From positions 22,444,001 to 22,508,000 of the forward strand of contig OX638166.1 of NCBI GenBank assembly GCA_951804945.1: DNA of 64,000 nt, in the 5' to 3' direction. This stretch comes from Podarcis cretensis. Its lineage: Eukaryota. The notes beneath the pieces are model-generated. The model made no database searches. It saw nothing but the letters and a program-made list of their open reading frames with translations, and was not told where the DNA came from. This document shows, piece by piece, positions 2,538 to 60,873 of this stretch. Each line of letters starts with the position of its first letter. Within the stretch, counting starts at the first letter, position 1. A program made the translations under genes and the position numbers.

Positions 2538-2796
2538 CCATATTTTTTGCTCTATAAGTCTCACTTTTTCCCTCCTAAAAAGTAAGGGGAAATGTGTGTG
2601 CGTCTTATGGAGCGAATGCAGGCTGCGCAGCTATCCCAGAAGCCAGAACAGCAAGAGGGATCACTTCTTTCGCTGCGCAGCGATCCCTCTTGTTGTTCTG
2701 GCTTCTGAGATTCAAAGTATTTTTTTCCTTGTTTTCCTCCTCCAAAAACTAGGTGTGTCTTATGGTCTGGTGCGTCTTATCGAGCGAAAAATACGG
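2538..2796. mobile_element. Tc1/mariner (pogo/Tigger-like) MITE with internal hairpin
   Basis: TA flanks; TIRs ccatattttttgctctataag / cttatcgagcgaaaaatacgg; internal ~26-bp inverted arms at ~2637-2662 and ~2683-2707. Confidence 0.8.
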
Positions 2797-4833: not shown

Positions 4834-4884
<51 letters not shown>

Positions 4885-5214
4885 TTATTATTTATACCCC
4901 GCCCATCTGGCTGAGTTTCCCCAGCCACTCTGGGCGGCTCCCAATCAAGTATTAAAAACAGTACAGCGTTACATATTAAAAACTTCCCTGAACAGGGCTG
5001 CCTTAAGATGTCTTCTGAATGTCAGGTAGTTGTTTATCTCTTTGACATCTGATGGGAGGGCGTTCCACAGGGCGGGCGCCACTACCGAGAAGGCCCTCTG
5101 CCTGGTTCCCTGTAGCCTCACTTCTCGCAATGAGGGAACCTCCAGAAGGCCCTCTGCGCTGGATCTCAGTGTCTGGGCTGAATGATGAGGGTGGAGACGC
5201 TCCTTCAGGTATAC
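4834..5214 (-). mobile_element. L2-clade LINE 3' fragment with (ATT)n tail
   Basis: ORF2 C-terminus ...QRAFSVVAPALWNALPSDVKEINNYLTFRRHLKAALF, 3' stem-loop, (TAA)n at 4834-4880; near-identical to copies at 16508 and 45346. Confidence 0.8.
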
Positions 5215-5346
5215 AGATTTGACGCTTATGACACGGGGCAAGTTAAGGATTGAGTTACCTAGCTTACGTTTTTATCATTCATATTTACAATGCAGCCTAA
5301 ATAACTGTGGGCAGAAATGCCTCAATCTAGCAATCCTATATCTATC

Positions 5347-5800
5347 TGTTATGGCTATCGGGTGGCTACTCAAGAGCAATCAGGCAAGGTGCCTCACTGA
5401 TCTGTTCTAAAGCTTTATTGATGCTAAAAACCTTTACAATGCAGAGCGCCTCTATTCCACATCTTGCTCATTCACTAGCAGAATCTGAGAGTGGGCGGTC
5501 CTTAAATCTTCCCCAGCAGAGTAGTCTCTTGACCCCCAGCCTACGCCTCCCCTCTCTGCGTGAAAGCCTTCTGCACAAGGAAAGCGTGGGTAAAGGGGGA
5601 CCTCCCTCCTCCCCACTTTGCTCAGGCAAGGTGTCCTGGCACCGCCTTGCATCCTCCGAGCCCTGCAGCTCCTCCCCACTAGAGGCATGGCTTCCTTCAT
5701 CCGCTGAGGAGGTGCTGCTTCCCACGATCTTTGGGGGCTCTCTGTAATCCATCCGCCTTCCCCCCCCCCTCGCCCCTGAGCCGATGGCAGTTCCCTGACA
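5347..5800 (-). mobile_element. Solo LTR (454 bp), probably Gypsy-type
   Basis: Minus strand TGTCAGGGAACTGCC...CCATAACA; perfect 5-bp TSD ctatc (5342-5346, 5801-5805); AATAAA inside the 3' part. Confidence 0.88.
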
Positions 5801-6306
5801 CTATCACTTGATAGCATGGGCATACTGTTCATGGGACGGTCATGGTTCTACTAAGTAGCACACTATGACCTGATCCAAGTCCAAGTTTGGTTTACTGTTA
5901 CCGTGTGAACAGGCTGGCTCCCATTTTGCACCCACTTGGGTTTCTCCAGGCTAAACCAAGGTTTGGTTTAATATATCCAAATCCAGGATCAATGTGGAAG
6001 TCTCTCCTGCTTAACCAAAATATACAGCCATAGGGCAAACCTTACAATAGACCATGATTATGGAGGAGAGACCTTAACCACAATTCTGGGTTTGGACAAC
6101 ACACTAAACCAAACTTTTTAACCAATTAGTGCTTATTATATTTGTACTGTTTGCATTATGTAGAGAAAGTAAATTTAACTTCAGTTTTCAAGATAAATAG
6201 GAAAGTTGAAGACGGGCTGGGAAAGGTCCAGTGGTTTTCATTGTTTTATGTATTTCATGGCTTGTGTGGTTAACTGGTTTGCTAACGTAGGTTTTTGTGT
6301 CTCCAG

Positions 6307-6982: not shown

Positions 6983-7120
6983 CAAGTTTCCTCTACCTCG
7001 GCCCTCCAGAAGTTTTTTTGGCCTACAACTCCCATGATCCCTAGCTAGCAGGACCAGTGGTCAGGGATGATGGGAATTGTAGTCTCAAAACATCTGGAGG
7101 GTCAAGGTTGAGGAAGCCTG
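6983..7120. mobile_element. Palindromic hAT-type MITE
   Basis: ccctccaga...acaactcccat / atgggaattgtagt...tctggaggg inverted arms; same family at 21415, 48489, 60738. Confidence 0.75.
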
Positions 7121-7447
7121 CTCTATTTCATAAAGCTTTCTAGATTATTTATATTCAAAACTGTTCAGCAAAATGAATCAGTTCTGTAATGCAGAGAAGA
7201 AATAGTATACTGATGACTTTTAATAATGACTTTTTTAATGCCATTTGATTTGTATTTTTTAAAAATGTGGCTTTTTTCAAGTTTATAATCATGTTTTCTA
7301 GCTGGTAATAATGAGCAACCTATTTTTACGGTGTGGAAACCTAAAAGTCATATATATCATAAGTATCCTATATAATTGGTGTTCAAAAATTCTTCAACCC
7401 AAAAGTATTCACTTTCCCTTCCGTGTTTGTGTTTTTCTTTTCTGCAG

Positions 7448-9159: not shown

Positions 9160-10669
9160 GTAAGTGAAAAAGATGAACTTTGTTTAACTCCTGAACTGAC
9201 AATCCTGCATGCTACTACTCATGCTTAGGGGGTGGCACTTGTTTATCAATGAATGGCTGTACTGAATGTATGATTTGGGGCCTGTTTGCATGGGCAAGAC
9301 CTCCTCTGTTTACCTTTGCATCCACTCTCCTTTTTATTGAGAGACTAACAACATTGCAAACGTCTTTCCCTTTCGTGCACAAGTAGCCATTCTGTCAAGA
9401 TTCCATAAATACCACCGGTAAGTGCCACAGATCACTGTTGAACCAGATGACTTTGAATCAGTAGTTGTATTATGCAGAACTGCATAATAATCGGTAAACT
9501 TACCGTTTTCACTTTACAAGGGAACAGATAGAGGGAAGGGACCGGAATAAACCATATTTTGTGTTCAACGTTGAAGCAGTTCCGTAAACCCGTGGGATAC
9601 CTAAATCCCTTATTGTTAGAGTAGAGACATTACTTACCAGGCGTCCATAAATATTCTGGTCAGTTGTGAGTGGGTATCTTTTATTTTAGGAAGAACGTTT
9701 GTGGTGCCTGCCTCTGCTGAGCTCATTTTGGTTTTTGCAGTTTATTTATTATTTATTTAATAAAATTAATTCACTGCTTGATTGTAAAAAAAGCAAAACC
9801 CTCAAAGCAGCTTATAAAAAGGTAAAACAAGAAAAAACACAACCCTACTTTAAAGCCTACAAATGTTAAAATACTAAAACAGAATAAAATTACATCGACT
9901 TCCTAAGCATCTGGGTTTAGGGACCTCTCTGCATTTGATTTCTCTCCCCCAGCTCACTATGACTATGGGAACTATTTTCTCCTCGCTGGGACAGGAACAG
10001 GGGTTCAGTACAGCAATACTTCTGGGCTTCAGAATCCTCTCTGTTTCTGAAGTTCGGCCCTGCGCCAAAGTCAGCCAAAATTCATGTACCCCAACCAACA
10101 ACTCGCAGTATAGCAGCAAAGAGTGAAACATAATCCATACCAAAGCATTTCACAGGTTTATTGAAAGTGGTTGTTGGTCTGTTTTTGTTCCTCAGTTATC
10201 TGTCCATCAATGAAAGTTGTTGCTGAAGTATAGTATATTCTGTTGTACTGGAGTGCAGCTAGGCACACATTTTGCAGTTTTGCTGCAGAAATCCAGGAGC
10301 TAGCTCATTAGTGGCATGAAAGCAGAGTTGAGATTAGAAGAAAGGGCATGCCAGGGGCTGGCTCTGGGTACTGAGATTTTTCAAAACCTCACTGGGGCAG
10401 CCAGAAGGCTTTTGTGCTGGGATTAGAGCAGTGTTGTTAATTGAAATTCATAGCTAGGATACTTTGAACATGCAGAGGTATTAGCATCAATATCCTTGCT
10501 TTTCAACAAACAATCTATTATTAGGGCTTCATTTAAAAATTCCACCTCTTGCTTCCCCACCCAGCCCAATGCACCCAATATAAAAAACTAAATAGCAGAT
10601 AAACATTTGCTGTTTACTCTGTATAGTTGACTCAGAACCATGAAGCAAGGAATAAGTTTTAAAATTAAA

Positions 10670-10865
10670 TAATTGTCCAGTAGCACCTTAGAGTCCAACT
10701 TAGTTCTGCGTATAAGCTTTCGTGTTCATGCACACCTCTTCAGCATGCACAAGAAAGCTTATACCCAGAACTAACTTAGTTGGTCTCTTAGGTGCTCCTG
10801 GTCAATTTTTTAATTATTATTTTTTTGTCTGCATCAGACCAACACGGCTACCTACCTGAATCTAT
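10670..10865. mobile_element. Penelope-like element terminal relic in inverted (fold-back) arrangement
   Basis: Inverted arms gtccagtagcaccttagag...aagctttc / gaaagctt...ctcttaggtgctcctggtc; hammerhead-like core CTGAAGA...GAAAGCTTATA on - at 10711-10743. Confidence 0.7.
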
Positions 10866-16507: not shown

Positions 16508-16890
16508 AGCCTCAGTCCAGTATATCTGAAGGAGTGTCTCCACCCCCATCGTTCTACCCGGACACTGAGGTCCAGCACCGAGGGCCTTCTGGCAGTTCCC
16601 TCACTGCAAGAACCCAAGTTACAGGGAACCAGGCAGAGGGCCTTCTCGGTAGTGGCACCCACCCTGTGGAACGCCCTCCCACCAGATGTCAAAGAGAACA
16701 ACTACCAGACTTCTAAAAGACATCTGAAGGCAGCCCTGTTTAGGGAAGCTTTTAATGTTTGATGTATCACAGTATTTTAATATTCTTTTGAAAGCCGCCC
16801 AGAGTGGCTGGGGAAGCCCAGCCAGATGGGCGGGGTATAAATAATAAGTTATTATATTATTATTATTATTATTATATTATTATTATTATT
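16508..16890 (+). mobile_element. L2-clade LINE 3' fragment with (ATT)n tail
   Basis: PVYLKECLHPHRSTRTLRSS...RAFSVVAPTLWNALP; 3' stem-loop ccgccc-tggctggggaagcccagcca-gggcgg; ATT tail. Confidence 0.8.
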
Positions 16891-25139: not shown

Positions 25140-25558
25140 CTAAATGATAAAAGTTCCTATCACTGTTATGTTTTATCTTCCACAGTCTGAAGGCCTGTCC
25201 AATTAAATCCCTCCACTCCCCCCATTTATTATAATAAGTTTAATAAATGTCACCTCTATGTATTCATCAGTTTTAAGATAAAATGGTGCTTTCTGAAAAT
25301 GCAAGTTGATGCCTAGATCTGACTCTATTTCTATCATTTCTCATAATCTGCACTATCCTGTATGAGACTTCCTGAGACAGCAATGCACACCTAATGTGCA
25401 TAAACAGCTTAACTGCTGTATGTGCCCTGTGGGCCAATAAGAGGACAAATTTTTCAGGAAGATTCCCTGACTCTCTGGAGAGGCTTTCCAGGGAATACAA
25501 GGAAGTGCAGAAGTTGAGGCAGGGGGACAGGAAAGCCAGTTGTGCAACCCAAGATAAT

Positions 25559-25992
25559 TGTCAGGGAACTGCCATTGGAGCCAGAGGGAGAGGGAGGGCT
25601 CCAGAGGGATTCCGGAGAGCGTCCCGGGAGGGAGAGAAGCAGCCCATCTGCTGGGGAAGGAAATCAGCGTAGCACCAGTGGAGAAGGGGGGCAGATGGGG
25701 GAATCGGCGAGGGGGCTCCATGACTCCTCGCCAGAGACCAGCGGGGAGAGCACGGGTCCTCCGCTGCCCACACCCTCCCTGCGCAGAAGGCTTCCACGCA
25801 GGGAGAGTAGGCGGAGACTAGGCATCAAAGAGCTTCTTTGCTGGAAGAAGTTCAAGAAACGCCCACTGACGGATTCTGCCAGCGATTGAGACAGCCACGG
25901 ATGGGTGGCTGTCCGGACAGAAAGGGTTTACCCAGGTACCCCAGCCAAGCGTGGCGCTGACTTACGCACGAGCAACCCCTAGAACCATTACA
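25559..25992 (+). mobile_element. Solo LTR (434 bp), same family as 5347-5800
   Basis: TGTCAGGGAACTGCC...CCATTACA; perfect 5-bp TSD ataat (25554-25558, 25993-25997). Confidence 0.88.
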
Positions 25993-26065
25993 ATAATTTT
26001 CCCTAAAACTCAAAATGCTTTGCTCTTTTTTAAGGCAAGAAACGTTAAAGTAGGAAAATACGCAC

Positions 26066-26787: not shown

Positions 26788-26915
26788 CTCTAAGGCGTAA
26801 GAAAACATTCCCATGCAAACCAAATACTTTCCCATGTAAATTTCATTATTATTAGTCAATGAAAATTAATTCTAGAATCTGCCTGCTCCCATCACTGCTT
26901 GCTCCCAAGTAAATA

Positions 26916-27294
26916 CAGTGGTGCCTCGCAAGACGAAAAGAATCCATTCCGCGAGTCTCTACATCTTGTGGTTTTTTCGTCTTGCAAAGCAAGCCCATTA
27001 GCGGCTTAGCGGATAAGCGCTATTAGCGGCTTAGCGGATCAGCTGATAAGCGGTTTAGCGGATAAGCGGCTTAGCGGATCAGCTGATAAGTGGCTTAGCG
27101 GATCAGCTGATAAGCGGCTTAGCGGCTTAGAAAAAGGGGGGGGGAACCCGCAGGAACTCGCAAGACATTTTCGTCTTGTGAAGCAAGCCCATAGGAAATT
27201 CGTTTTGTGAAGCACCTCCAAAACGGAAAACCCTTTCGTCTAGCGGGTTTTCCGTCTTGCGAGGCATTCGTCTTGCAGGGCACGTCTTGCAGGG
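26916..27294. mobile_element. Tc1/mariner MITE with internal 24-bp minisatellite; right end rearranged
   Basis: TA-cagtggtgcctcgcaagacg; internal gcggcttagcggatcagctgataa repeats; right end ...gtcttgcagggcacgtcttgcaggg-TA. Confidence 0.85.
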
Positions 27295-28031: not shown

Positions 28032-28199
28032 CTATATGAGGAGATTAATTATTCTTTAAAATGCCAGGACTGCAAAAACTCAAATATACTAGTAAAAAAT
28101 TAATTGTTTTAACAAAGTTAACAATTGCCTCATATATAAAAACAGGTCAGTGCTTGATTTGCTGATGCCACAGATTTTTAGGTCATATCTTTATCAGTA

Positions 28200-28555
28200 C
28201 AGTGGTGCCTCGCAAGACGAAATTAATCCGTTCCGTGAGGCTCTTTGTATAGCGGTTTCTTCGTCTTGCGAAGCAAGCCCATTGACAGCTTAGCGGATTA
28301 GCGCTATTAGCAGTTTAGTGGCTTTTAGCGGATCCGCTGATAAGCGGCTTATCAGTGGATCAGCTGATAAGCGGCTTAGCGGCTTAGGAAAAGGGGGGGG
28401 GAAGGGGGTAAAACCCGCAGGAACTCGCAAGACATTTCGTCTTGCAAAGCAAGCCCATAGGGAAATTCGTTTTGCGAAGCGCCTCCAAAACGGAAAACCC
28501 TTTTGTCTAGCGGGTTTTCCGTCTTGCGAGGCGTTCGTCTTGCGGGGCACCACTG
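28200..28555. mobile_element. Tc1/mariner MITE, complete
   Basis: TA-cagtggtgcctcgcaagacg ... cgtcttgcggggcaccactg-TA. Confidence 0.9.
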
Positions 28556-31500
28556 TATATGAGTATGGGAAGTATACATATATATTACACATAAGAATAT
28601 TGGCTGCTATAAACAACTTTTTAGTAGCATAGATTTGAGTTTGTTTGTCTGGAAAAGAGGTTGATGAGGTACACAGATGAGGAGATTGTTCTCCATAGTG
28701 TTTTCCCCAACCCAAAGTTAAGAGTCTGTCAATGATTTTATTGTTCTAAAATGGATTCTTCAATTACGATACATTGTAAGCCAGTTTAGCACATTCATCT
28801 GTCTTTGCCAACCTGGCTCTTGCTGGGCTCGATGGGAATTATAGTGCAATAAATCTGGAGGGCACTAAGTTGGCAAATGCTGCCTTCTATCATCTCCTCT
28901 CCAAAACACAAATCAACAGATCACAAGGGTCTGTTGGACTCACCCAGAATGATGTTTGGCAAGTTATTCTGACATACCCTGTTCAACTACAGTCATACCT
29001 ACAGTCATACCTTGGCACTCATACATTTTGGCTCCCGAATGCCGCAAACCCGGAAGCGAGTATTCTGGTTTACGAAAGTTCTTTGGAACCCAATTGTCTG
29101 GTGCAGCTTCCACAGCTCCTGATTGTCCGCAGGAGCTTCCTGCAGCCAATCGGAAGCTGCGTCATTGTTTCCAAACATTTAGGAAGTGGAACAGACTCGT
29201 ACTCACTTAATGGTTTGCTACCGTTCCTCAGACATTTTAAGGAATCTGTAACCACATAAGGTAATAATATCCCATTGGTGTTTCTCCACTGGGGAGGAAG
29301 ACAATTTTCAGACATTCTTCCCCTGCCCCCATAGCTCTCCAATCTGCTCTCAAGGGTCCCTCAACCTTCCAGATCAGATTTTGGAGAAGAGGAAATTACT
29401 GAAAATAGTCTCCTTCCCCATTCCACTGAAGGATGCCTCCTATCAGTGGAAGACCCCCTAATGGATACCACACATAAACTTGGAGGGAGGGAATCTAAGC
29501 ACAAGACAAATTCATTCAGCAACTGGGATGAATACAGCAGTTTGCTAAGTATTAATGGGCTAAACAAAGTTGCTATCAATTGTTCAGGGGAAAAAATGTA
29601 ATTTTTCATTTATAAAGAACATTCCCACATTCTCCTGGTAAAAGCATACACTAACAAAATACTAAGGTTTTCTCTCACCACAATACAATAACTGCAAATG
29701 AACTGGAACAAACCTACTGCAACAGAATTTCAAGTATACTCTATTAACATCACAAAAATTTTGGGAACTGAAAAGCAAAGCAAGGGAGGAAGATCTATCT
29801 TTTCCTTTCCTCTTGAGTTGTCAAGAATGTGAGCATGCAAAACAGACTATAAAAATTATTAAAGAAAGGTTGAAATGTGTCGGATAATCCAATTTTAAAA
29901 CGCAGTCAGCAGCAAGAAAATAAGTCAGGCTGTGAGTGGACCTCCTGATACTTTTGTGGCCCCCAAATTGGGCTGATTTGCCCTGTGCCACCCTGGAAGC
30001 AACACATCCACCCCAAAGCAATTCCTATGTCAATATAAAGTTAGAACAGGGTTTTTAAAAGGTCAGGGGATGAGTGCACCAGCACTGTACAGGATCGCAT
30101 CTTTAAGGGGACAGAACTGGAAGGAGAGGCCTGCCGGTGACAGGAAAAGTGAAACCTGGCAAGGGCACCCCTGCCATAGACCTTCTCTAGCAAAGATGCA
30201 GCCACCTGGCAGTTCTCTCATTTTCACAGTGCTGTGGCCTCCTTCTTGCTGATGCCTGTCTCTCCTTCCTTCCTGCCTGACCCTTTACCCCTCAACCTGA
30301 CCTATAGAGATCAGGAGCTGATCCATTGCAGCAACCTACATTTTTAGTTCACATCTTATGAACTAAAAAACGATTAATGAATTATGAAGCATACATGAAT
30401 AATTTATAATGTTTTATAAGCAATCGATAACAGCATTAAGGGCTATTAATTATTATTATGCTACTAGATACATCAATTTAATCCACCTCATAATGAAGAT
30501 GAAGTGGAACGATAACAGATCACTAGACAAAGGTGAGAAACTTAGCTGAGGAAGGGATTTTTCAAGTGCAATCTTAGGCTTGTCTACTCAGAAGAAAGTC
30601 ATCTTGAGTTCAAGGGGACTCAGTTTCATCTTTAATATTTGTTGCATATTCATTTGTCTGTGCCACATTCATTCATTCATTCACATATGGTGTGTGTTTG
30701 TGGGTGTGTTACAGTATTCACAGGAGACCCAGCAAATTCAAGGTACTTAAGTTACCCCAACTGACATCATAATTTTTAACAGACCTATTCTAAGTATGAC
30801 ATAGCTGATCATCATCCATATAGATTTGGTCTTCTAAGGCGGCTTTACTTATCTAAGAGTAAGTCCTACTGAACTCAACAGGACGTTTTCTGAGTAGAAA
30901 CACGAAGAACACTACAAAACCCATTTATCATATTATCATAAGATAACAAAGTCTGTAACTTTAACAGATTTCCAAGTACTTACAAATTCCTATAATAGGC
31001 CATAGTAAAGTAAGGGGCAAAGAGAGAGGATGGAAATAATATTTAAGACCAATATAGATGCAATGCTAGCATGGCCATGTACTTGTGCTTAAGGGTGGAG
31101 ATGAAACCACAGAATTGACCAAGCAGCCCCTTCTCTCACATGCAAATTCCCTTTGATCTCTCTTTCCTTGGTTTAGGATTATGGGTGTTGCCTGGCTAAT
31201 GTTAAGCTATCTGTGCTTGGAATCTAACTTCAGAACCTACTGCAGGTAAGAAGAACTTGTGAAGTAGGAGAAGAGGATTCCGAGAAAGGGGATTTCAACC
31301 CCTTAAACTTAGTTAATAGTGCTGGTTCTACTATAAGTCCAAGTGAAGAAGATTATTCCACAATTATTCATCTTTAGGTTTCTATCATCTTTTCCTGAGG
31401 CACTGCCAAGATCTACTGTTCACTCAACCAAATCAGGTCACTTGTCAGATACAGAAACGATACAGGACTGCAATTCTGGCACAGAGGTTTCTGGATCACA

Positions 31501-32055: not shown

Positions 32056-33927
32056 CTGAAGAAGAGGTGTAAACATTACTCTGATTGTAGAAAACAGCTT
32101 ATGCCTAAACAAACCATAGCTAGATTCATGAAATCAAAAAGAGACAAATATTGTTTCATCACACAGAACAGCTTGTAGCTTAATTTGTTAATATCTGCTT
32201 CCATTGGCTAGGCACTGGCCTGGTTGCAGGGAACAGTAAACCATAGTTAAAAACAAACTATGTTTAATGTGAATGGGTCCCCATGGTGTTCCACCCCTTT
32301 GCTATGGTGTGGCAGACAGAATAAGCCGGTCTGGCTTGTTGTGTCGTCTGAAGGCAGGCTTGTGATTTGTCGGTGGCAGAAGTGGAGGAACACTGCTAAT
32401 TCACATAAAATAGTTTGTTTTAAGAGATACTATGCCACAAATATCTTACTATTTACAGGTAAATATTGCTATTTATGCTTTTTAATCTGCAGCCTCCTAA
32501 ACCTAATTCTCACTGAGGCGTCAATCTGTCTTGTCTGAAACATTGTATGTTTCTCTGTACAAAAAACTATCCACATGTAGATGGGTACCATATCAGGTAA
32601 AAGTGATTTCTCAGATGTGCTAGTTTTCTACATGTTTTCTACAGGTTTTTGTTTTTGTACAGAGCAACTTTAAATCATGTGAAACCCATCTTGGAGTGTG
32701 AAGTGGTATGAACCAGGCATAGGTTATCATCTCTGTCAGATTAGGCCTAAAAGGAATACTCTTCTGGGTCCCAGAATATGGGCAGCATGCAGTCAGCTTG
32801 CTGAAGCCAAGCAAGTTTGGTTCTGGACAATACCTGAATGGCAGACTGCCTCAGAACCCCATGTACAAGCACCACCTTGATTTCCATCTTGGAAGTAAGG
32901 CACAATATAGATGTAATAAATAAAACAATGCTGGGAAAAACCAAGACTGCCACCAAAGGAAAAATGTAATATAATAAAAACATGATATAAATGTCAGTAA
33001 GCTTCATCTGAAACAGAATACACTCCACATGCAACCTTTTCCCAAAGTGCATGTGTCATTGTGTTACCAGATGCAACTGAGGCAAAATCACAATTTTCTC
33101 TGACTGAATTTTTGTAAAAAATAAATCCCAACATTATGAATAGCTAAACACTATATAGTAGCAAACATTAAATCAAAGTGTATGTTGTTGTGGGAGAGGA
33201 GGGTCAACAATTAAATTTCAATGGAGTTTGAGTCTAACTATCTGTGCTTGGAATCTGCTAGTGAAATACTAAAATAATTCTAAAGTCAAAGAGACCCTCA
33301 TTCTGAAGATTCTAAACAACAGCATCTGTATTTTTGGCCTGAGCATTATGGAAAGAAAGCTGAGCTGAGCTAGTATTTGCAGCTTTGATCTTCAAATGTG
33401 TAGGCTCAGGAAGACATCAATGGACATTGCTTCCTAGTAGATTCTGAAGTTTTACTATTAGGAGGAGACCCTCTGGGAAACTAAATAAACCTGCTGGACC
33501 TCGACCTGAGTGTGGATAGTACAGTTGAAATGGGACCTAGCTGTGGGCAGCCTAAGGAAGGTACCATTCACCTTTGGTTGGTCGGCCCATAAAAAGCAAA
33601 CCTAGAGTGAGAGAATAGGATCCACTGTTTCCAGGATCTTTTCTCATTGTTAGAAGTTTGTGAGTGAGCTGTGTTTCTTTGCACCCTGGGTGAGAACCCA
33701 GAGGCTGGGAGGGAAACTGTATCCAAAGGAAAATAAACTGATATTGAGATAAATTAGTAACTATGCATTAATATAATAAATTGTATATGTATGTAACTGT
33801 ATATTTTGGTAATATTTTGTTTTAAGTTGTCTGTTGTTGCTTCAGGTTTTTTTGTACTCTGCTTAGAGAATTTTTTAAATAGATTAAGCAATATAGTAAT
33901 TAAAAAATCAGATCAAAACAAAAAATA

Positions 33928-34259
33928 CAGTGGTGCCTCGCAAGACAAAAAGAATCCGTTCCGCGAGTCTCTTCGTCTTGCGGTTTTTTCGTCTTGCGAA
34001 GCAAGCCCATTAGCGGATTAGCGCTATTAGCGGGTTAGCGGATCAGCTGATAAGCGGCTTAGCGGATCAGCTGATAAGCGGCTTAGCGGCTTAGAAAAAG
34101 GGGGGGAGGGGAAAAAATCCGCAGGAACTCGCAAGACATTTTCATCTTGCGAAGCAAGCCCATAGGAAATTCGTTTTGCGAAGCACCTCCAAAACGGAAA
34201 ACCCTTTCGTCTAGCGGGTTTTCCGTCTTGCGAGGCATTCGTCTTGCAGGGCACCACTG
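33928..34259. mobile_element. Tc1/mariner MITE, complete
   Basis: TA-cagtggtgcctcgcaagac ... gtcttgcagggcaccactg-TA; close copy of 26916 and 28200. Confidence 0.9.
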
Positions 34260-35625
34260 TACACAAATAATTAAAACACACAATTAATGGCAGAGTTTGG
34301 ATATGAATTCTGTGAGTTGTTTATGGCTGCAGCTCATATGCTAGTTGGTAAACTGTGGAAGAAATAGAATGTGAGCTTGTACCATCCAGATAAACACTGC
34401 AAAGAACTGAATAATGGAAGATAGTAATGAACTCTCCCAGCACACCAGGTCTGGAACAACAATGTACATGAAGGACTACACCAGTGAAATGGATTACCTA
34501 ATGAAGGTGCTGTTTGTATGGTGGAAAAATGGCCAGCTGGAAGAATGGTTTAACGGCAAGTGAAGGACGTCGACTGGGCTTTAAAAAAGAAATGATGTGC
34601 CTATGTGAGGATGATGATCTTATGTTCAGAACCGGAGTGGGAAACTTTATTTTAAGAAACTGTATTAAATTAATTTGGTTTGATTTGTAATAATTTGGAA
34701 AATTAATAAAAAAATAATTGGGGGGGATTTTCATTTTTGATGAGGCCCCTAAAATAGGTAGCTATTAGAGGTAAAACCCTATATTTTGAAAACATGTTTA
34801 TTTATTTTTTTTCAATTTACATCCCACTCCTTGTTGCAAGACGCAATGGAAGAGTATCAAACATATGGTGTTCAACTATCAGTGAATTTACACTATACAG
34901 ATCATTATGACTACTTTACTGAAGAAAACTGAACAAAAAGGCTGTTTTTCAGCTGCTACAAGAAGCTATACACTGTTGGCATCAGTCTAAGTAACCCATG
35001 TATTTATTTTCCATTTGGAACCACCAGCATGGCCTCTCCAGCAGATCATCTTAGGCAGTGGCATTTCCGTACATAAACAAGTCCCAAACTGTTAAGGGCT
35101 TTTATAGGTAAAAAATGATACACTTAATCTGACTTGCTGGCAAATAGCCTTGAAATCAAGGCTGCCTATTTGATGCAAGTATAGACCTGCTCCTGCACAG
35201 AATCCTGTAGGGGAGAAGGTGGGGTGAATTTTAGATGGAGAGAAAAGGAAACAAAGGAATGAAGCAAGTCATTTGAGCACATAATTCCTAAATAACTGTT
35301 GCCAATGACTGCTTTGAGCCCTTCTTCTGTCCCCCAAGACTAGGTTAGGGGTGGGGGAGAGAGAAGGATTTGAGTGTTTCTCCTTTCATCCCCCCACCCA
35401 ACCAATTAGGCTTCCAGGATGCTCACAAACTGGGTCTCTACTAACACATATATAAATGATAGACGTGTCGGTTCATACACAACCAGAAATACACCTATTT
35501 TAAAATGTTTGTTGCAATATTACAAGTGCCGTTAAATATTGTCAAGTTTTCTCTAGATATGGTATTTAATAAAGAAATTAAATCAACTCTCAGTGCACAT
35601 AAGCAAATGTGGAAATAAAACTTAC

Positions 35626-42232: not shown

Positions 42233-43810
42233 CTTAAAGAAATAAACAAACCAAAAATTAGGAGAGAAGCAGCCACGTCACAGATTAAAGGAAATACACC
42301 AGCTACAGTTTAAGTTGGATCTAATTGTGCCATTTCATTTGCTGAAAGGTTTTGGACCCAGCCAATGGAAGAGGAGGAGATTCCCACTTCAAGCTTCTAT
42401 GTCATCTTCAGTACTGTTCTGGAGGTACCCCCAACCCACCAGAGGAAATGGAGGGGTGGGTGCAGGCCTGGAATGGGTCCCAATTTGGCCTACCAGGCAT
42501 TTACCCCAAACCATACCCATTCACCCCATACCTAACACCTCAGGAGAGGTGTGGATGAAGACATGGCTGCTAATACACAATCAGAAGCCTTCAAGTGCAT
42601 TCCCAGTTATGCACTGACAAGGCAAGAATGCTCTTGCCACCAGTCGGCTGGGACTGGCTGCACTACCAAGGGGACTCCCCTTGGGAAATGCCTCGAGTTG
42701 CCTTTGGGAAATCCATGGCCAGCCAACCAACGCAGAAAGCAGAGCTTGAAGTAAGTGTTTATCAGCTGATAGGAACTCACTTCAAGCGCCCTAGAATTGG
42801 CTGCACTACTGAATTCCCCATGGGGAACTCTGAAGCCAGTCAATCCTCGAAGGGACTTGCCAAGAGTCCTGCTTAGCGCTTTGAAGCACTAACAATCAAC
42901 TGATTGGTGGCACTTTGAAGCATTGTGCAGGGCTCTTTGGAAGCCCAGTACACCGACCATTTCAGGACTTCAAAGCACCCCATTATCTGATGCCATTGTG
43001 ATGCCCACTTGACAAATGTGGTGTGTGACAGTTATAGAAGGTAAAGATCTGGCCCACCAAGCAGACTCAGTTCCACACCCCTAGTATAAAAGATGTGTCT
43101 CCAAAAAAACTATGTATCTATCACATTTCAAGTGGTTAAAGTAGAAGCTGTTTAAAACATAAACTAGCCTCATTTCCTTAGACAGGAAGACAAGATCCAG
43201 CAATTGGAAGTGCAAAATTATATGGGGAGCACCAAGCTCTTATGACAATTTAAGAAACTGTAGCAGTAGTAATGTAAGACCAAAAGGTAGGATCAAACCC
43301 AAAAAATCACCTTCACCCACCAACCCAGCAGTGAGATTCAGCAAGGGCTTCTTGCAAAGCCTCAGTGCGGGGAGGGGAGACCTCACCCCTTACTCTCACT
43401 TGAGGGGAAGCCCTTGCAGAGCCTCACGACTCCTATCCTATTGCGGGGGTGGCAGTGCATTTTGCCTCAGGCGCCAAAACATCTAGGGCTGCCCTATGAC
43501 ACTGACAATGAAGTTCACCATAAAAATCACAAACGTAAAATAGAAAAAAGAGTTCATTAGTTCTGCAAAGAATAATTTCACTTTTTCCTGTTCTACTAGC
43601 ATGGTGAAAGGTATGCAACACATCATTTACACAGTCATATCTTAAAAGTACAGTAAGCCCACAACTTACGTGCATTCAACTTATGCACATGGCCAAAAAA
43701 TAATAAAATAATTAAAAGGGGGCATACATTTGGGGGGGGGTGAAGACATGCAGTCCCGATTGCCATTGAACACAATGCGTTTCAACATGATTTTGGCTTT
43801 AGGCATTTTA

Positions 43811-44174
43811 AAAGGTAAAGGTAAAGGTACCCCTGCCCGTACGGGCCAGTCTTGACAGACTCTGGGGTTGTGCGCCCATCTCACTTAAGAGGCCAGGGGC
43901 CAGCGCTGTCCGGAGACACTTCCGGGTCACGTGGCCAGCGTGACATCGCTGCACTGGCGAGCCAGAGCCGCACACGGAAACGCCGTTTACCTTCCCGCTG
44001 GTAAGCGGTCCCTATTTATCTACTTGCACCCGGAGGTGCTTTCGAACTGCTAGGTTGGCAGGCGCTGGGACCGAGCAGCGGGAGCGCACCCCGCCGCAGG
44101 GATTCGAACCGCCGACCTTTCGATCGGCAAGTCCTAGGCGCTGAGGCTTTAACCCACAGCGCCACCTGCGTCCC
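43811..44174 (-). mobile_element. Sauria SINE, young CpG-rich subfamily, full length
   Basis: GGGACGCAGGTGGCGCTGTGGGTTAAAGCC head, (ACCTTT)3 tail; TSD taggcatttta (43800-43810, 44177-44187). Confidence 0.92.
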
Positions 44175-44577
44175 TCTAGGCATTTTACCAAGTATGTAAC
44201 TCCTCATGTTGCAGGTTTACTATACAAATTATTATTTGTAAAGAATCCACAAAAATGCTTGTTTTAAAAACTCAAAGAAGTGCTGATCAGCATCTACAGC
44301 CACACAATAAATGAAACTAATTTACAAAGGGGGGAAATTGTGTAAACTTGGTTTGACATATACCGCAAATCTCAGGGTGGGGTAGTGGGAGGATAGTACA
44401 AATGTAAACATTTTCAATAGTCTGAAGCCTTATTTGAAGTTAAAGAACAAGCAATATGTTTGTGTGCACCTTCCTAACCACTCCACCTCCACACACTTAG
44501 GTTAATGAATAATAGCTTGGGTTTTGGTAAACCATTATTTTTGCCATTATAGTCAATTCCACAAACTATGTTTGAAC

Positions 44578-45345: not shown

Positions 45346-45706
45346 AAACGGCCTCGGCCCAGTATACCTGAAGGAGCGTCTCCACCCCCATTGTTCTGCC
45401 CGAACGCTGAGGTCCAGCGCCGAGGGCCTTCTGGTGGTTCCTTCATTGCGAGAACCAAAGCTACAGGGAACCAGGCAGAGGGCCTTCTTGGTAGTGGCAC
45501 CCGCCCTGTGGAACGCCCTCCCATCAGATGTCAAAGCGATAAACAACTACCTGACATTCAGAAGACATCTTAAGGCAGCCCTGTTCAGGGAAGTTTTTAA
45601 TGTGTGACATTTTAGTGTATTTTTGTTCTCTGTGGAAGCCACCCAGAGTGGCTGGGGAAACCCAGCCAGATGGACGGGGTACAAATAATAAATTATTATT
45701 ATTATT
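45346..45706 (+). mobile_element. L2-clade LINE 3' fragment with (ATT)n tail
   Basis: Near-identical to the copies at 4834 and 16508, including the 3' stem-loop. Confidence 0.8.
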
Positions 45707-48050
45707 AAAATAAATTATGCAAAATTATGCATTTACCATTCAACTTAATTCAATAACAAATATGGGTTTTTGTACAATTTGAAAATTTTAGTAAGGGGAA
45801 AGAGATACACAGAGATTTGCACAGCAAAAGATATGAGATCTAAGGAAACAGCGACTGTGGCCAGGAGCAAAAAAAACATGGTACCCCCCCCCAGATGTTG
45901 TTGGACTCCCAGCCCCACTTAGCTGCAGTCAGAATGGCCAATGGTCAGGAACAACAGAAGCTGTGGTCCAGTAACATCTGGCAGGGGTCACATTTGTGAC
46001 CCCTCCTATAGCTATGGGGAAGGACACGGAGTTGTGCAGATTACAGACCTCTAGACACCCTAGCTTCAGTCCTATTATCTCTGGTTTCTAAGAGGAATAA
46101 TCTACTATATCACTCCTCTATTGTTCCAATTCTCTACAGCTCTGAAGATAGGAAATTCATTTCTTTGTCTGTTAGGAAGAGATTCAGAAAATAAAAAGCC
46201 ACCTGCACACCTTCAATGCAAACAGTATTACACATTCAGTTCCAAATATTTCCAGAACATCTGCCTATAAACAATGGGTGATATCCAACTAAGTCACCCT
46301 CACAGTGGACCCACTGAAGTCAAATCCCTTTATTTCAATAGGTTTACTAATCCACCACTAAATGGAGCATTTTAACTATAGCAGAGCAGTGCAGCATTCA
46401 CAGCTATATGATTTAAACTGTAGCAGTATAATACAGCATTGCAGTACATGAAATAGAGCAAAATCAGACAAAGAAACAAAAGGAGATTCTCATTTCATTT
46501 TCACCAAAGATGAAGCAATTTTGTTAAAAATAGAGTAAAAAATGAAGCAAGCTCATTATTTTCTAATCAGTATATTGCCCTTATATAGTTTAATCGTTAC
46601 AATCTTAGCATAATCTTAAACTAACAATGCGCTTTTCAGTTACATATATATTGTAGACCTATACATATACTAGCTTTGCAATGTTAACTTAAGTAATAGC
46701 TGCAATTCACATTCTCTTGAAAATAATAGGGTCTTTCTCATTTATTTTGATACAACTGTGAGTGCACCTGATGCATTTGAAATAATAACTCGTGTCTTTA
46801 ATAACTTTAGTTTCTACAAGAATCAAGATTTTACTATATAAGTATCTCTAATAAAATATTAATATGGGGGGGGGGATCCAACAAATGTAAGAGCAAGTCT
46901 TTAAAAAATAAAAAGCTCAATAGATGATTGACTCTGTGAAAGCTTAACCCTACCAAACCTGCTTCTAATTTTAAATATTAATGCTAGCATAGCAGAACTC
47001 TCACGTGATCTTCCATCTCTATGGAAACCTTTCTTAGCAATTGGTTGCCCATGAAGAAAGAATCCCAGTTTTCCTTGACCACAGGCTGTATTTATACATT
47101 ACTAGAATGTGGCTCAGATAAAAGTATTAACCCTATGTGAACATACAACAAATCTATCCTAAATTTAAGGTCTATTATAAAATCATTTCATCTTTTCCTG
47201 ACCCCCTTCTAATTTACACCTAAAACAAGTACATTTAATTGATTCATGGAATCCACAACTGACTCATATCTGTTCACAGTTCACTTTATTTCCCTTTCCT
47301 CAAGCCAGACTGATCATTTTGGACCAAAATATTAAACAAGGACAGTCTTATCAAGCAAGCACAATCTGACAAGAGAAGCTTGTGTTTTGAAACAGGCTTG
47401 CATGTTCAAGCTTCCCATCTGGAAGTGCTCATACATAGGCAATAGTGTTATTCAAAAGGGGAGGGGGGGAGAGAAATACCACCTCTAACACACAGGTTGT
47501 TGTAAGTCCCATTGAAAAGATGGTGGGTGTTGTCAGTTTTAACAATGAAGCTCATGTGTCAGAGAAGAGGAAGTCCTAATTCACAGCACACACAAATACG
47601 GTTGATTAGCAATGTCAAAGCTGAAAGTGCAAACCCTTTGCCTTGTGCACCATTTCATTCAGGAAGCCCACTGCTGTGCATGAGGATCTTTCCCCAGATG
47701 GCAATGCCTCCAAATGCAAACTCTTACCAAAACACAGCCATTTAAAGATGAATAATATTTCTGCATATCTTAAAATTTGAATAACATCTAACAGATAAAA
47801 CTTTATATCTATATTCACACACACACACACACACACAATATAGGTTACTATCACAACCACTGCTTATTAAAAGCAAATAACTAGAAAAAAACCATTCCAT
47901 GAAAGAAAATATGGCCTACCATATATATACTGCCTGAACCCACATTTACGCAAGATACCAGAAGAAGCTCCTTTGATTTCTCTTACCACCTGACCTTCTA
48001 GGGGTGAGAGCTATGTCTTTCAAGCAGGTATAGTGGCTGAAGGAGGTTTT

Positions 48051-48488: not shown

Positions 48489-48624
48489 CAGGTACCCCCA
48501 ACCTGCGGCCCTCCAGATGTTTTGGCCTACAACTCCCATGATTACTACCTAACAGGACCAGTGGTCAGGGATGATGGGAATCGTAGTCCAAAACATCTGG
48601 AGGGCCAAAGGTTGGGGGTTCCTG
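48489..48624. mobile_element. Palindromic hAT-type MITE
   Basis: caggtacccccaacct / aggttgggggttcctg TIRs; imperfect 8-bp TSD gcctaaat / gtctaaac. Confidence 0.8.
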
Positions 48625-48895
48625 GTCTAAACAGCAAACTTCAGCTCCAGCCCACTTGCATAGACTGCCAGTCCCACCCCCCAGCAGAATTCTAAGTGCT
48701 GGTTTTGATCCATAAACCACTGCATGGTTTAGGATTCTGAAACCTTATGGACTACCTTCCTTCATGTGAACCTACCCAGATGTTGAACAACATACAAGGC
48801 CCTTCTCTGTGTCCCCTCCAGATGTTGAAAGGGGAGAACCTGCCTTTACGGTGGTAGTCCTGACTGTGAAAAGCCTCACTGATACTCATCTTTCT

Positions 48896-60737: not shown

Positions 60738-60873
60738 TAGTGATGGACAAACTTGGCCCTCCAGCTGTTCTGGGACTACAATCCCCATCATCCCTCACCA
60801 CTGGTCCTGTTAGCTGGGGATGATGGGAGTTGTAGTCCCAAAACAGCTGGAGGGCCAAGTTTGGCCATCACTC
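60738..60873. mobile_element. Palindromic hAT-type MITE
   Basis: agtgatggacaaacttggccctccagctgt...acagctggagggccaagtttggccatcact; long near-perfect inverted arms. Confidence 0.8.

What the first reader, a model, noticed from the sequence alone, without database searches (positions are those of the whole stretch)
25559..25992. Solo LTRs carry a conserved Arg-rich reading frame under apparent purifying selection
Seen: this solo LTR and its diverged relative at 5347-5800 (-) both start TGTCAGGGAACTGCC, end ..ACA and have perfect 5-bp TSDs. One frame is open from the first bases of the LTR (VRELP...) for ~110 codons to TGA at 25887-25889. The other copy has the same frame apart from a shift near its poly-G run (~5761-5770) and the same stop. 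I aligned the last 44 codons by hand (25755-25886 vs 5602-5471): 16 identical, 17 differ only synonymously, 11 differ in amino acid, several conservatively (GPPLPTPSLRRRLPRRESRRRLGIKELLCWKKFKKRPLTDSASD vs GPPLPTLSLCRRLSRREGRRRLGVKRLLCWGRFKDRPLSDSASE). Similarity collapses after the stop. Known: retroviral nef and sag occupy U3; Rev/Rex/Tat use Arg-rich RNA-binding/NLS motifs; some Gypsy pol frames read through the PPT. Inference: this lizard LTR family encodes a selected domain (acidic/Ser linker plus Arg-rich motif) inside U3, either an accessory protein or an integrase C-terminal extension. I do not recognise it as described.
Basis: partly seen in the sequence, partly recalled or inferred. 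Interest (0 to 1): 0.8.

Follow-up and report, generated by a model that had tools for sequence, protein, structure and literature searches.

The report
Lizard retrotransposon integrase tail inside LTR
The reading frame in these two leftover jumping-gene ends is the tail of the element's DNA-inserting enzyme, which in this lizard family runs on across the promoter part of the terminal repeat and is kept by selection; the tail likely steers the enzyme into the nucleus and onto chromatin, possibly by imitating motifs that would bind LEDGF, the host protein HIV uses for the same purpose.

Summary
Observation confirmed exactly (16/17/11 codons). Both copies are solo LTRs of a Tf1/sushi-type, self-priming Ty3/Gypsy chromovirus family with thousands of copies in this genome. 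In full-length elements the frame is not a separate gene. It is the end of a 1334-1351-codon pol frame that runs from the chromodomain through an acidic tail and the polypurine tract, across all of U3, and stops seven codons past the self-primer site. The last 44 codons are under strong purifying selection between subfamilies (dN/dS 0.05-0.23); the first 65 are weakly constrained. Selection acted on the parent elements, not on the solo LTRs. Just upstream, the tail carries two conserved helix-acidic-FxGF motifs that fit the published definition of LEDGF/HRP2-binding TIMs, and the chromodomain lacks two of its three methyl-lysine cage residues. Binding is untested. At least two other chromovirus families in the genome also read pol into U3. 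The same layout is known in plant CRM elements; my searches did not find it described for vertebrates.

The parts
25559..25992 (+). Solo LTR, subfamily A of a Tf1/sushi-type Ty3/Gypsy chromovirus (TG...CA)
   Evidence: 95.6% identical to the 3' LTRs of two 5.6-kb gag-pol elements
25554..25558 (+). Left target-site duplication of copy A (ATAAT; right copy 25993-25997)
25560..25889 (+). LTR-encoded end of pol (109 codons + TGA); no upstream frame or start at the LTR edge in this solo copy
25560..25754 (+). Weakly constrained Ser/Glu/Gly linker (codons 1-65); length differs between subfamilies by whole codons
25755..25886 (+). Selected C-terminal 44 codons: Pro/Thr-Pro, Arg-rich stretch, LLCW, basic cluster, acidic end
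25782..25862 (+). Arg/Lys-rich segment with the spacing of a bipartite nuclear localisation signal (predicted)
   Evidence: pattern match on the homologous tails P0001 and P0005, (pattern recalled); short helices predicted
25865..25875 (+). Self-primer site (inferred RNA 5' end, U3/R border) inside the codons Pro-Leu-Thr-Asp-Ser; complementary to the PBS of full-length copies
5347..5800 (-). Solo LTR, older subfamily B; TSD GATAG at 5801-5805 and 5342-5346
5468..5799 (-). LTR-encoded end of pol in copy B, frameshifted near the G run at ~5761-5770; stop at 5470-5468
   Evidence: read-through from the chromodomain in a B copy with internal sequence
5482..5492 (-). Self-primer site of subfamily B; the predicted complementary PBS was found after a B 5' LTR elsewhere in the genome
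   Evidence: L069; L126

Best explanation
The frame is the C-terminal end of the Pol polyprotein (integrase-chromodomain tail) of a self-priming Ty3/Gypsy chromovirus; it is encoded across the polypurine tract and all of U3, is kept by protein-level selection, and likely serves to bring the integration complex into the nucleus and tether it to chromatin. Shown: continuity with pol, domain order, selection, whole-codon length changes, covarying self-primer. Inferred: (1) only the 3' LTR copy is translated, from full-length RNA whose R region still holds the stop; (2) the Arg/Lys-rich end works as a bipartite NLS and/or a basic chromatin or nucleic-acid anchor; (3) the two helix-acidic-FxGF motifs just upstream of the LTR would bind TND domains of LEDGF/HRP2 and so replace the methyl-lysine cage that the chromodomain has lost. 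Solo LTRs are passive relics of this frame. My odds: about 0.95 for the Pol-extension identity, about 0.6 for the import/tethering role, about 0.45 for TND binding specifically.
For: Of 21 stretches examined, four (L107, L108, L109, L118; LTR pairs 100% identical) have a 1334-codon frame ending in the 3' LTR; L200 and L201 have 1351 codons. Pfam order: protease, RT, RNase H, integrase, SH3, chromodomain at 1094-1141, then ~190 residues without a family. The PPT-LTR junction pattern has 699 matches, control 0; 16 of the first 30 are open over all 1.5 kb upstream and on to the shared stop. Last 42 codons, ungapped, between subfamily groups: pN/pS 0.05-0.42 in 28 of 28 pairs of groups, dN/dS 0.05-0.23 in the 21 where it could be computed. 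A vs B in four other frames: dN/dS 0.96-1.12. The fifth (antisense, sharing third positions) is low but holds stops in most groups. 75 of 87 LTRs with a located self-primer keep it in register; subfamily modes 307, 283, 280, 277 differ by whole codons. Three Podarcis muralis Pol models and one unnamed protein carry the same tail. Two F-x8/9-FxGF motifs are present in 46 of 60 loci, at least one in 58 of 60, with pN/pS 0.19 and 0.23 against 0.27 for the chromodomain; two such motifs arose in 0 of 20000 shuffles; helices are predicted to end on each first Phe. This fits the TIM definition in PMC9987994 (section 6 read). Cage residues 1 and 3 are replaced. Two related families also have one such motif and a degenerate cage; a family with an intact Y-W-Y cage shows none in its tail.
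Against: No protein, localisation or binding datum exists; every functional step is inferred from motifs. The first 65 LTR codons are only weakly constrained. Part of the conservation has a nucleic-acid cause: the LTR's first bases (integrase attachment site, recalled) and the self-primer overlap the codons. A profile of the FxGF motifs did not find the LEDGF-TIM fusion chains that are in the PDB; its only hit was a Numb peptide at E 0.56. Region-wise pN/pS rests on a protein-guided alignment, which favours low values. Cage loss and FxGF gain probably trace to one ancestral event, so the three families are not independent. The LTR-coded tails of this family and of the intact-cage family show no detectable homology (0.4%), and this family lacks the RRSARL motif. 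The transcription start was inferred from the self-primer, not mapped.
Confidence: 0.82

Rival explanations
1. The tail is translated with Pol but cut off by the element's protease (or made from a spliced RNA) and acts as a free accessory protein, an Arg-rich RNA-binding or anti-silencing factor.
For: The tail is long, disordered and charge-patterned, acidic then basic; a weakly constrained linker separates the chromodomain/FxGF part from the basic end.
Against: The frame is continuous with integrase in all six full-length-frame copies seen; no start codon at the LTR edge; the inferred RNA 5' end lies at the end of the frame, so an LTR cannot transcribe it by itself.
Confidence: 0.1
2. The frame is merely tolerated read-through; conservation reflects promoter, attachment-site and self-priming constraints on the DNA/RNA.
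For: The self-primer and LTR terminus overlap conserved codons; first 65 codons dN/dS 0.70, not significant by shuffle for one pair.
Against: Third-position excess of 23.3 vs 9.3 and 5.2 differences per pair in the last 44 codons; 0-1 of 1000-2000 shuffles as low in six pairs; self-primer variants change mostly synonymous or small-residue positions; subfamily lengths differ by whole codons.
Confidence: 0.04
3. The tail is a Pol extension, but the FxGF motifs bind something other than TND domains (or fold back on the chromodomain), and the basic end binds the element's own RNA/cDNA or the nucleosome acidic patch rather than importin.
For: No PDB TIM hit; the intact-cage family ends in RRSARL, the HMGN acidic-patch motif core (PMC12487698, passages); the first motif directly follows the chromodomain helix.
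Against: Helix + 8-9-residue Ser/Thr-acidic linker + FxGF, in tandem, matches all three parts of the TIM definition; bipartite NLS spacing is kept in both tails tested.
Confidence: 0.3

Closest known systems
Vertebrate Tf1/sushi chromoviruses (V-clade: Sushi-ichi, Amn-san)
   Same: gag(CCHC)-pol with protease-RT-RH-IN-SH3-chromodomain, TG..CA LTRs, 5-bp TSD, no tRNA PBS but a self-primer (group features from PMC6317226 and PMC4131045, passages).
   Different: Pol continues 225-238 residues past the chromodomain YLVxW motif, against 32-72 in the 17 other Pol hits where the motif was found (hosts mostly unnamed); the cage is degenerate; U3 is fully coding.
Plant CRM group A centromeric retrotransposons (CR motif) and beet Bingo elements
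   Same: The pol frame extends into the 3' LTR and a putative targeting domain is encoded there (PMC3059260, PMC3605345; passages).
   Different: CRM group A has the CR motif in place of a chromodomain and uses tRNA-Met priming; here the chromodomain fold stays, priming is by self-primer, and no sequence link to the CR motif was tested or seen.
TND-interacting motifs (TIM/IBM) of JPO2, IWS1, KMT2A, POGZ; lentiviral integrase-LEDGF tethering
   Same: Predicted helix ending in Phe, acidic Ser/Thr linker of 8-9 residues, FxGF, two in tandem. The outcome would parallel lentiviral use of LEDGF/HRP2 (PMC9987994 passage).
   Different: Binding not measured; lentiviral integrase uses a structured site, not a linear motif (PMC10854676 passage); these motifs lie just upstream of the LTR, not in it.
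Ty1 integrase C-terminal bipartite NLS with targeting domain
   Same: Disordered integrase tail that joins nuclear import and host-factor tethering (PMC7459421, abstract and outline).
   Different: Ty1/copia, AC40 partner, not encoded in the LTR (recalled).
Retroviral U3 genes nef and sag (recalled)
   Same: Protein coding inside U3.
   Different: Those are separate genes from spliced RNAs; this frame is fused to pol and the element has no env.

Membership tests
Ty3/Gypsy chromovirus | pol order protease-RT-RNase H-integrase | tested here: met
   Pfam on P0001 and L200
Ty3/Gypsy chromovirus | Chromodomain at the integrase C-terminus | tested here: met
   PF00385 E 2.7e-8; HP1/CBX hits in the PDB; fold predicted with block pLDDT 81-93
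Ty3/Gypsy chromovirus | TG..CA LTRs, PPT, 5-bp TSD, no env | tested here: met
   49 of 60 best LTR hits have a perfect 5-bp TSD; no room or ORF for env in 5.5-kb elements
Tf1/sushi group | Self-priming: PBS complementary to a site in the LTR | tested here: met
   11-nt complement in 8 elements and 2; five covarying variants; B variant predicted, then found in 1 of 11 pattern matches. Six older elements had mismatches
Tf1/sushi group | RT phylogeny with named Sushi/Amn references | tested here: inconclusive
   Quick tree groups this family with the second lizard family (SH-aLRT 93) but held no named reference
Type I chromodomain | Three aromatic cage residues | tested here: not met
   Only the Trp is kept in 15 of 15 aligned copies
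CRM group A (CR motif) | pol frame extends into the 3' LTR | tested here: met
CRM group A (CR motif) | CR motif replacing the chromodomain; tRNA-Met PBS | tested here: not met
   Chromodomain present, self-primer instead of tRNA PBS
TND-interacting motif (TIM/IBM) | Short helix with Phe/Val/Leu/Ile anchor | tested here: met
   Helices 63-71 and 108-112 predicted, each ending on an invariant Phe; the second at pLDDT under 50
TND-interacting motif (TIM/IBM) | Acidic Ser/Thr linker of 8-16 residues followed by FxGF | tested here: met
   Linkers of 8-9 residues in A7; both motifs in 46 of 60 loci
TND-interacting motif (TIM/IBM) | Binding to a TND, raised by CK2 phosphorylation | not testable with these tools
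   Needs a binding assay
Bipartite NLS | Two basic clusters 10-12 residues apart (recalled pattern) | tested here: met
   Pattern found in 2 of 2 tails tested
Bipartite NLS | Importin-dependent nuclear import | not testable with these tools
   Needs localisation assay
Retroviral U3 accessory gene (nef/sag type) | Separate ORF with own start or spliced RNA | tested here: not met
   Frame continuous with pol
HMGN-type nucleosome-binding motif | RRSARL core | tested here: not met
   Absent from this family; present in the second family

The most novel reading that the evidence does not exclude
A recently active lizard LTR retrotransposon has swapped its targeting module: it lost the methyl-lysine cage of its chromodomain and evolved tandem linear motifs that mimic host TIMs, docking its integrase on LEDGF/HRP2 as lentiviruses do by a different surface, while a selected basic import/chromatin signal is written across its whole U3 promoter. 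Pol read-through into U3 is a general design of squamate chromoviruses.
Probability: 0.42. Interest if true: 0.87.

Novelty: new variant of a known kind. Interest (0 to 1): 0.64.

Why it matters
It shows that thousands of lizard LTRs treated as non-coding are relics of a dual-use sequence: promoter, self-primer and the end of integrase in the same bases, with two clean readouts (codon selection and primer covariation). If the FxGF motifs bind LEDGF/HRP2, this would be a transposon that reached the lentiviral tethering factor independently by short-motif mimicry. The genome also holds sister families with and without the cage and the motifs, so how a chromovirus changes its integration targeting becomes directly testable from insertion maps and peptide binding.

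Tried and rejected
Complex prediction of the two-motif segment (72 aa) with the Podarcis LEDGF IBD: no verdict (ipSAE 0.11 and 0.12, mark 0.34; alignments were not used, controls not folded, tool untested on peptides). Run search for RNA holders: no RNA holder listed; contigs of three guessed-RNA runs from one study covered parts of an element and showed no GT..AG joint, which says nothing on expression or splicing. Pfam on the two window peptides: 0 families. PDB by sequence: two-motif segment 0 hits; LTR-coded profile 0 hits; motif profile one chance-level Numb hit. ESM Atlas gave no answer. Profile comparison of the LTR-coded tails of this family and the intact-cage family: 0.4%, so homology between them is not claimed. 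A generic PPT-LTR pattern was at chance (96 vs 115 control); 3 of its first 30 loci were chromoviruses. An antisense ORF as the selected frame was rejected because it holds stops. Integration-site bias towards genes could not be tested (no annotation). The careful RT tree did not finish; the quick tree is quoted. Two primary TIM papers were not held.

Full report
OBSERVATION. Copy A has a frame open from LTR base 2 for 109 codons to TGA 25887-25889; copy B has the same frame and stop, shifted near its G run. The last 44 codons give 16 identical, 17 synonymous and 11 changed codons, exactly as reported; none of 2000 column shuffles gave as low a pN/pS.

WHAT THE LTRS BELONG TO. The genome gives 2844 first-look candidates for A and 1070 for B (40 scored each). 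Of the 60 best hits, 49 have perfect TSDs. Two A hits are 3' LTRs of 5.6-kb elements with gag and pol. A pattern for the polypurine tract-LTR junction has 699 matches and 0 in the control. In 16 of the first 30, the LTR frame is open through all 1.5 kb upstream and on to the shared stop. Of 21 longer stretches, four have identical LTR pairs and a 1334-codon pol frame that ends inside the 3' LTR; two of another subfamily have 1351 codons. Pfam gives protease, RT, RNase H, integrase, Tf2-type SH3 and chromodomain, then ~190 residues with no family. A subfamily B copy with internal sequence reads from the chromodomain across the junction in the same frame. So the frame is the end of Pol. The only relatives of the tail in protein collections are three Podarcis muralis Pol models and one unnamed protein, which places the host among lacertid lizards. 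The 17 other Pol hits with a recognisable chromodomain motif end 32-72 residues after it, against 225-238 here; 11 hits lacked the motif match.

U3 IS FULLY CODING. There is no tRNA primer site. The 11 bases after the 5' LTR are complementary to a site in the last codons of the frame (window 25865-25875), as in self-priming Tf1/sushi elements (PMC6317226, passages). Five variants of the site covary with their PBS. The B variant was predicted from the window copy and then found behind a B LTR (1 of 11 matches; 2 were the LTR site itself, 8 unrelated). If this site is the RNA 5' end (inferred), the frame covers all of U3 and ends seven codons into R, and a solo LTR cannot transcribe it.

SELECTION. 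Only real copies were compared; copies with an open frame of the expected length were used (A 25 of 30, B 14 of 30 after dropping one with a damaged 5' end). Last 42 codons, ungapped: pN/pS 0.05-0.42 in all 28 pairs of groups; dN/dS 0.05-0.23 in the 21 that could be corrected. A vs B: last 44 codons dN/dS 0.13 (9.3/5.2/23.3 differences per pair by codon position), first 65 codons 0.70. Four other frames give 0.96-1.12; the antisense frame that shares third positions is low but carries stops. Within A the positions are flat (3.6/3.3/4.1; pN/pS 0.62), within B less so (8.7/8.8/12.5; 0.52). Subfamily U3 lengths differ by whole codons, and 75 of 87 located self-primers are in register. Selection therefore acted on replicating parents.

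ANATOMY OF THE TAIL. The model has a folded chromodomain, short helices at 63-71 and 108-112, and a disordered remainder with two short helices in the basic end (mean pLDDT 56). The chromodomain keeps only the Trp of the three cage residues. Between chromodomain and PPT lie two motifs of the form F-x8/9(Ser/Thr, acidic)-F-x-G-F. Both are present in 46 of 60 loci and at least one in 58; they are as constrained as the chromodomain (pN/pS 0.19, 0.23 vs 0.27; protein-guided alignment). Two arise in 0 of 20000 shuffles. None of the 28 Pol hits P0006-P0033 has such a motif in its tail. The TND review defines TIMs as helix + acidic linker of 8-16 residues + FxGF, notes tandem copies, and says FxGF is essential for LEDGF and HRP2 partners (PMC9987994; passages and section 6). 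The match was first noticed from memory; it is a pattern match, and the motif profile did not retrieve the TIM fusion chains in the PDB. The LTR-coded end has bipartite-NLS spacing in both tails tested.

OTHER FAMILIES IN THE GENOME. A second family (Pol 47% identical, intact Y-W-Y cage, single 1544-codon gag-pol) runs 352 bases into its 3' LTR and ends in an Arg-rich stretch with RRSARL, with no FxGF in the tail. 16 of 28 copies are in frame across the junction, 24 of 28 LTRs are open for 114 codons, and pN/pS between its two subgroups is 0.48. RRSARL is the core of the HMGN acidic-patch motif (PMC12487698, passages). Its LTR-coded tail shows no detectable homology to this family's. A third family (RT ~62% identical; 6 copies fetched) has a degenerate cage, one FxGF motif and read-through with the self-primer inside the frame. 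One old copy of a fourth has one motif and the same L-x-C-W basic end. Two further old families show acidic-then-basic LTR frames, with weaker evidence.

MECHANISM. Shown: Pol extension, selection, dual use of U3/R bases. Inferred: translation from the 3' LTR of full-length RNA; a basic end for nuclear import or chromatin contact, as in the Ty1 integrase tail (PMC7459421, abstract and outline); FxGF motifs that would tether the complex to H3K36me readers in place of the lost cage. Rivals are a released accessory protein, nucleic-acid constraint alone, and other partners for the motifs.

WHAT IS KNOWN. A pol frame running into the 3' LTR with a targeting domain there is described for plant CRM group A and some beet chromoviruses (PMC3059260, PMC3605345; passages). 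The paper on conserved LTR structure does not mention ORFs in Sushi LTRs (PMC3601003, passages); the frog survey notes only the chromodomain (PMC4131045, passages). Searches listed no paper on this layout in vertebrates; searches listed none on TIM-like motifs in a retrotransposon integrase (listings only, except the papers named). Subscription papers on chromoviruses, Repbase/Dfam and all supplements were not seen, so read-through itself may already be annotated there.

VERDICT. Real and explained: a new variant of a known arrangement, not a new accessory gene. Interest 0.64, carried by the fully coding U3 and the testable LEDGF-mimicry lead.

Noticed in passing
G000 loci L162-L189, L190-L197: Second chromovirus family with intact cage whose gag-pol runs 352 bases into the 3' LTR, stops just before a TATA-like site and ends in the HMGN-type RRSARL motif.
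   Followed up: partly
L272-L277 (e.g. G000:C11:1038700-1046200) and L234: Two related families with one helix-acidic-FxGF motif, degenerate cage and read-through into U3.
   Followed up: partly
L254-L268, L270: Two older families with acidic-then-basic LTR frames; 6 of 15 loci of one are open for 100 codons or more.
   Followed up: partly
L192 (G000:C12:50398200-50406200): An intact-cage element inserted into a ~185-bp tandem satellite array.
   Followed up: no
window 4839-5214, 16509-16890, 45351-45707; 26911-27283, 28198-28557, 33923-34261; 96-458, 43806-44175: Three families of ~350-bp dispersed repeats, 78-89% identical.
   Followed up: no
window 2633-2711, 6995-7125, 10663-10815, 48489-48629, 60739-60872: Short palindromic, MITE-like elements, some related to one another.
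   Followed up: no
L112, L114, L122 (gag-pol overlap): A GGGAAAC/T slippery heptamer sits at the gag/pol overlap in 3 of 9 copies examined; the other copies have no canonical heptamer at that place.
   Followed up: partly
LTRs of subfamilies A, C, D, E: No AATAAA after the stop in the copies printed; the window's B copy has one. A second U5-leader stem is seen beside the self-primer duplex.
   Followed up: partly
G000:C13:6290458-6390352: Six copies of the same PPT-like junction spaced 11-38 kb apart, possibly a tandem segmental array.
   Followed up: no
P0006: A Podarcis vomeronasal-receptor gene model that includes a piece of this element's pol, probably an annotation fusion.
   Followed up: no
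L069 / L126 (G000:C4:107687800-107695800): Subfamily B 5' LTR split by a ~360-bp insertion, in an internally deleted element.
   Followed up: no
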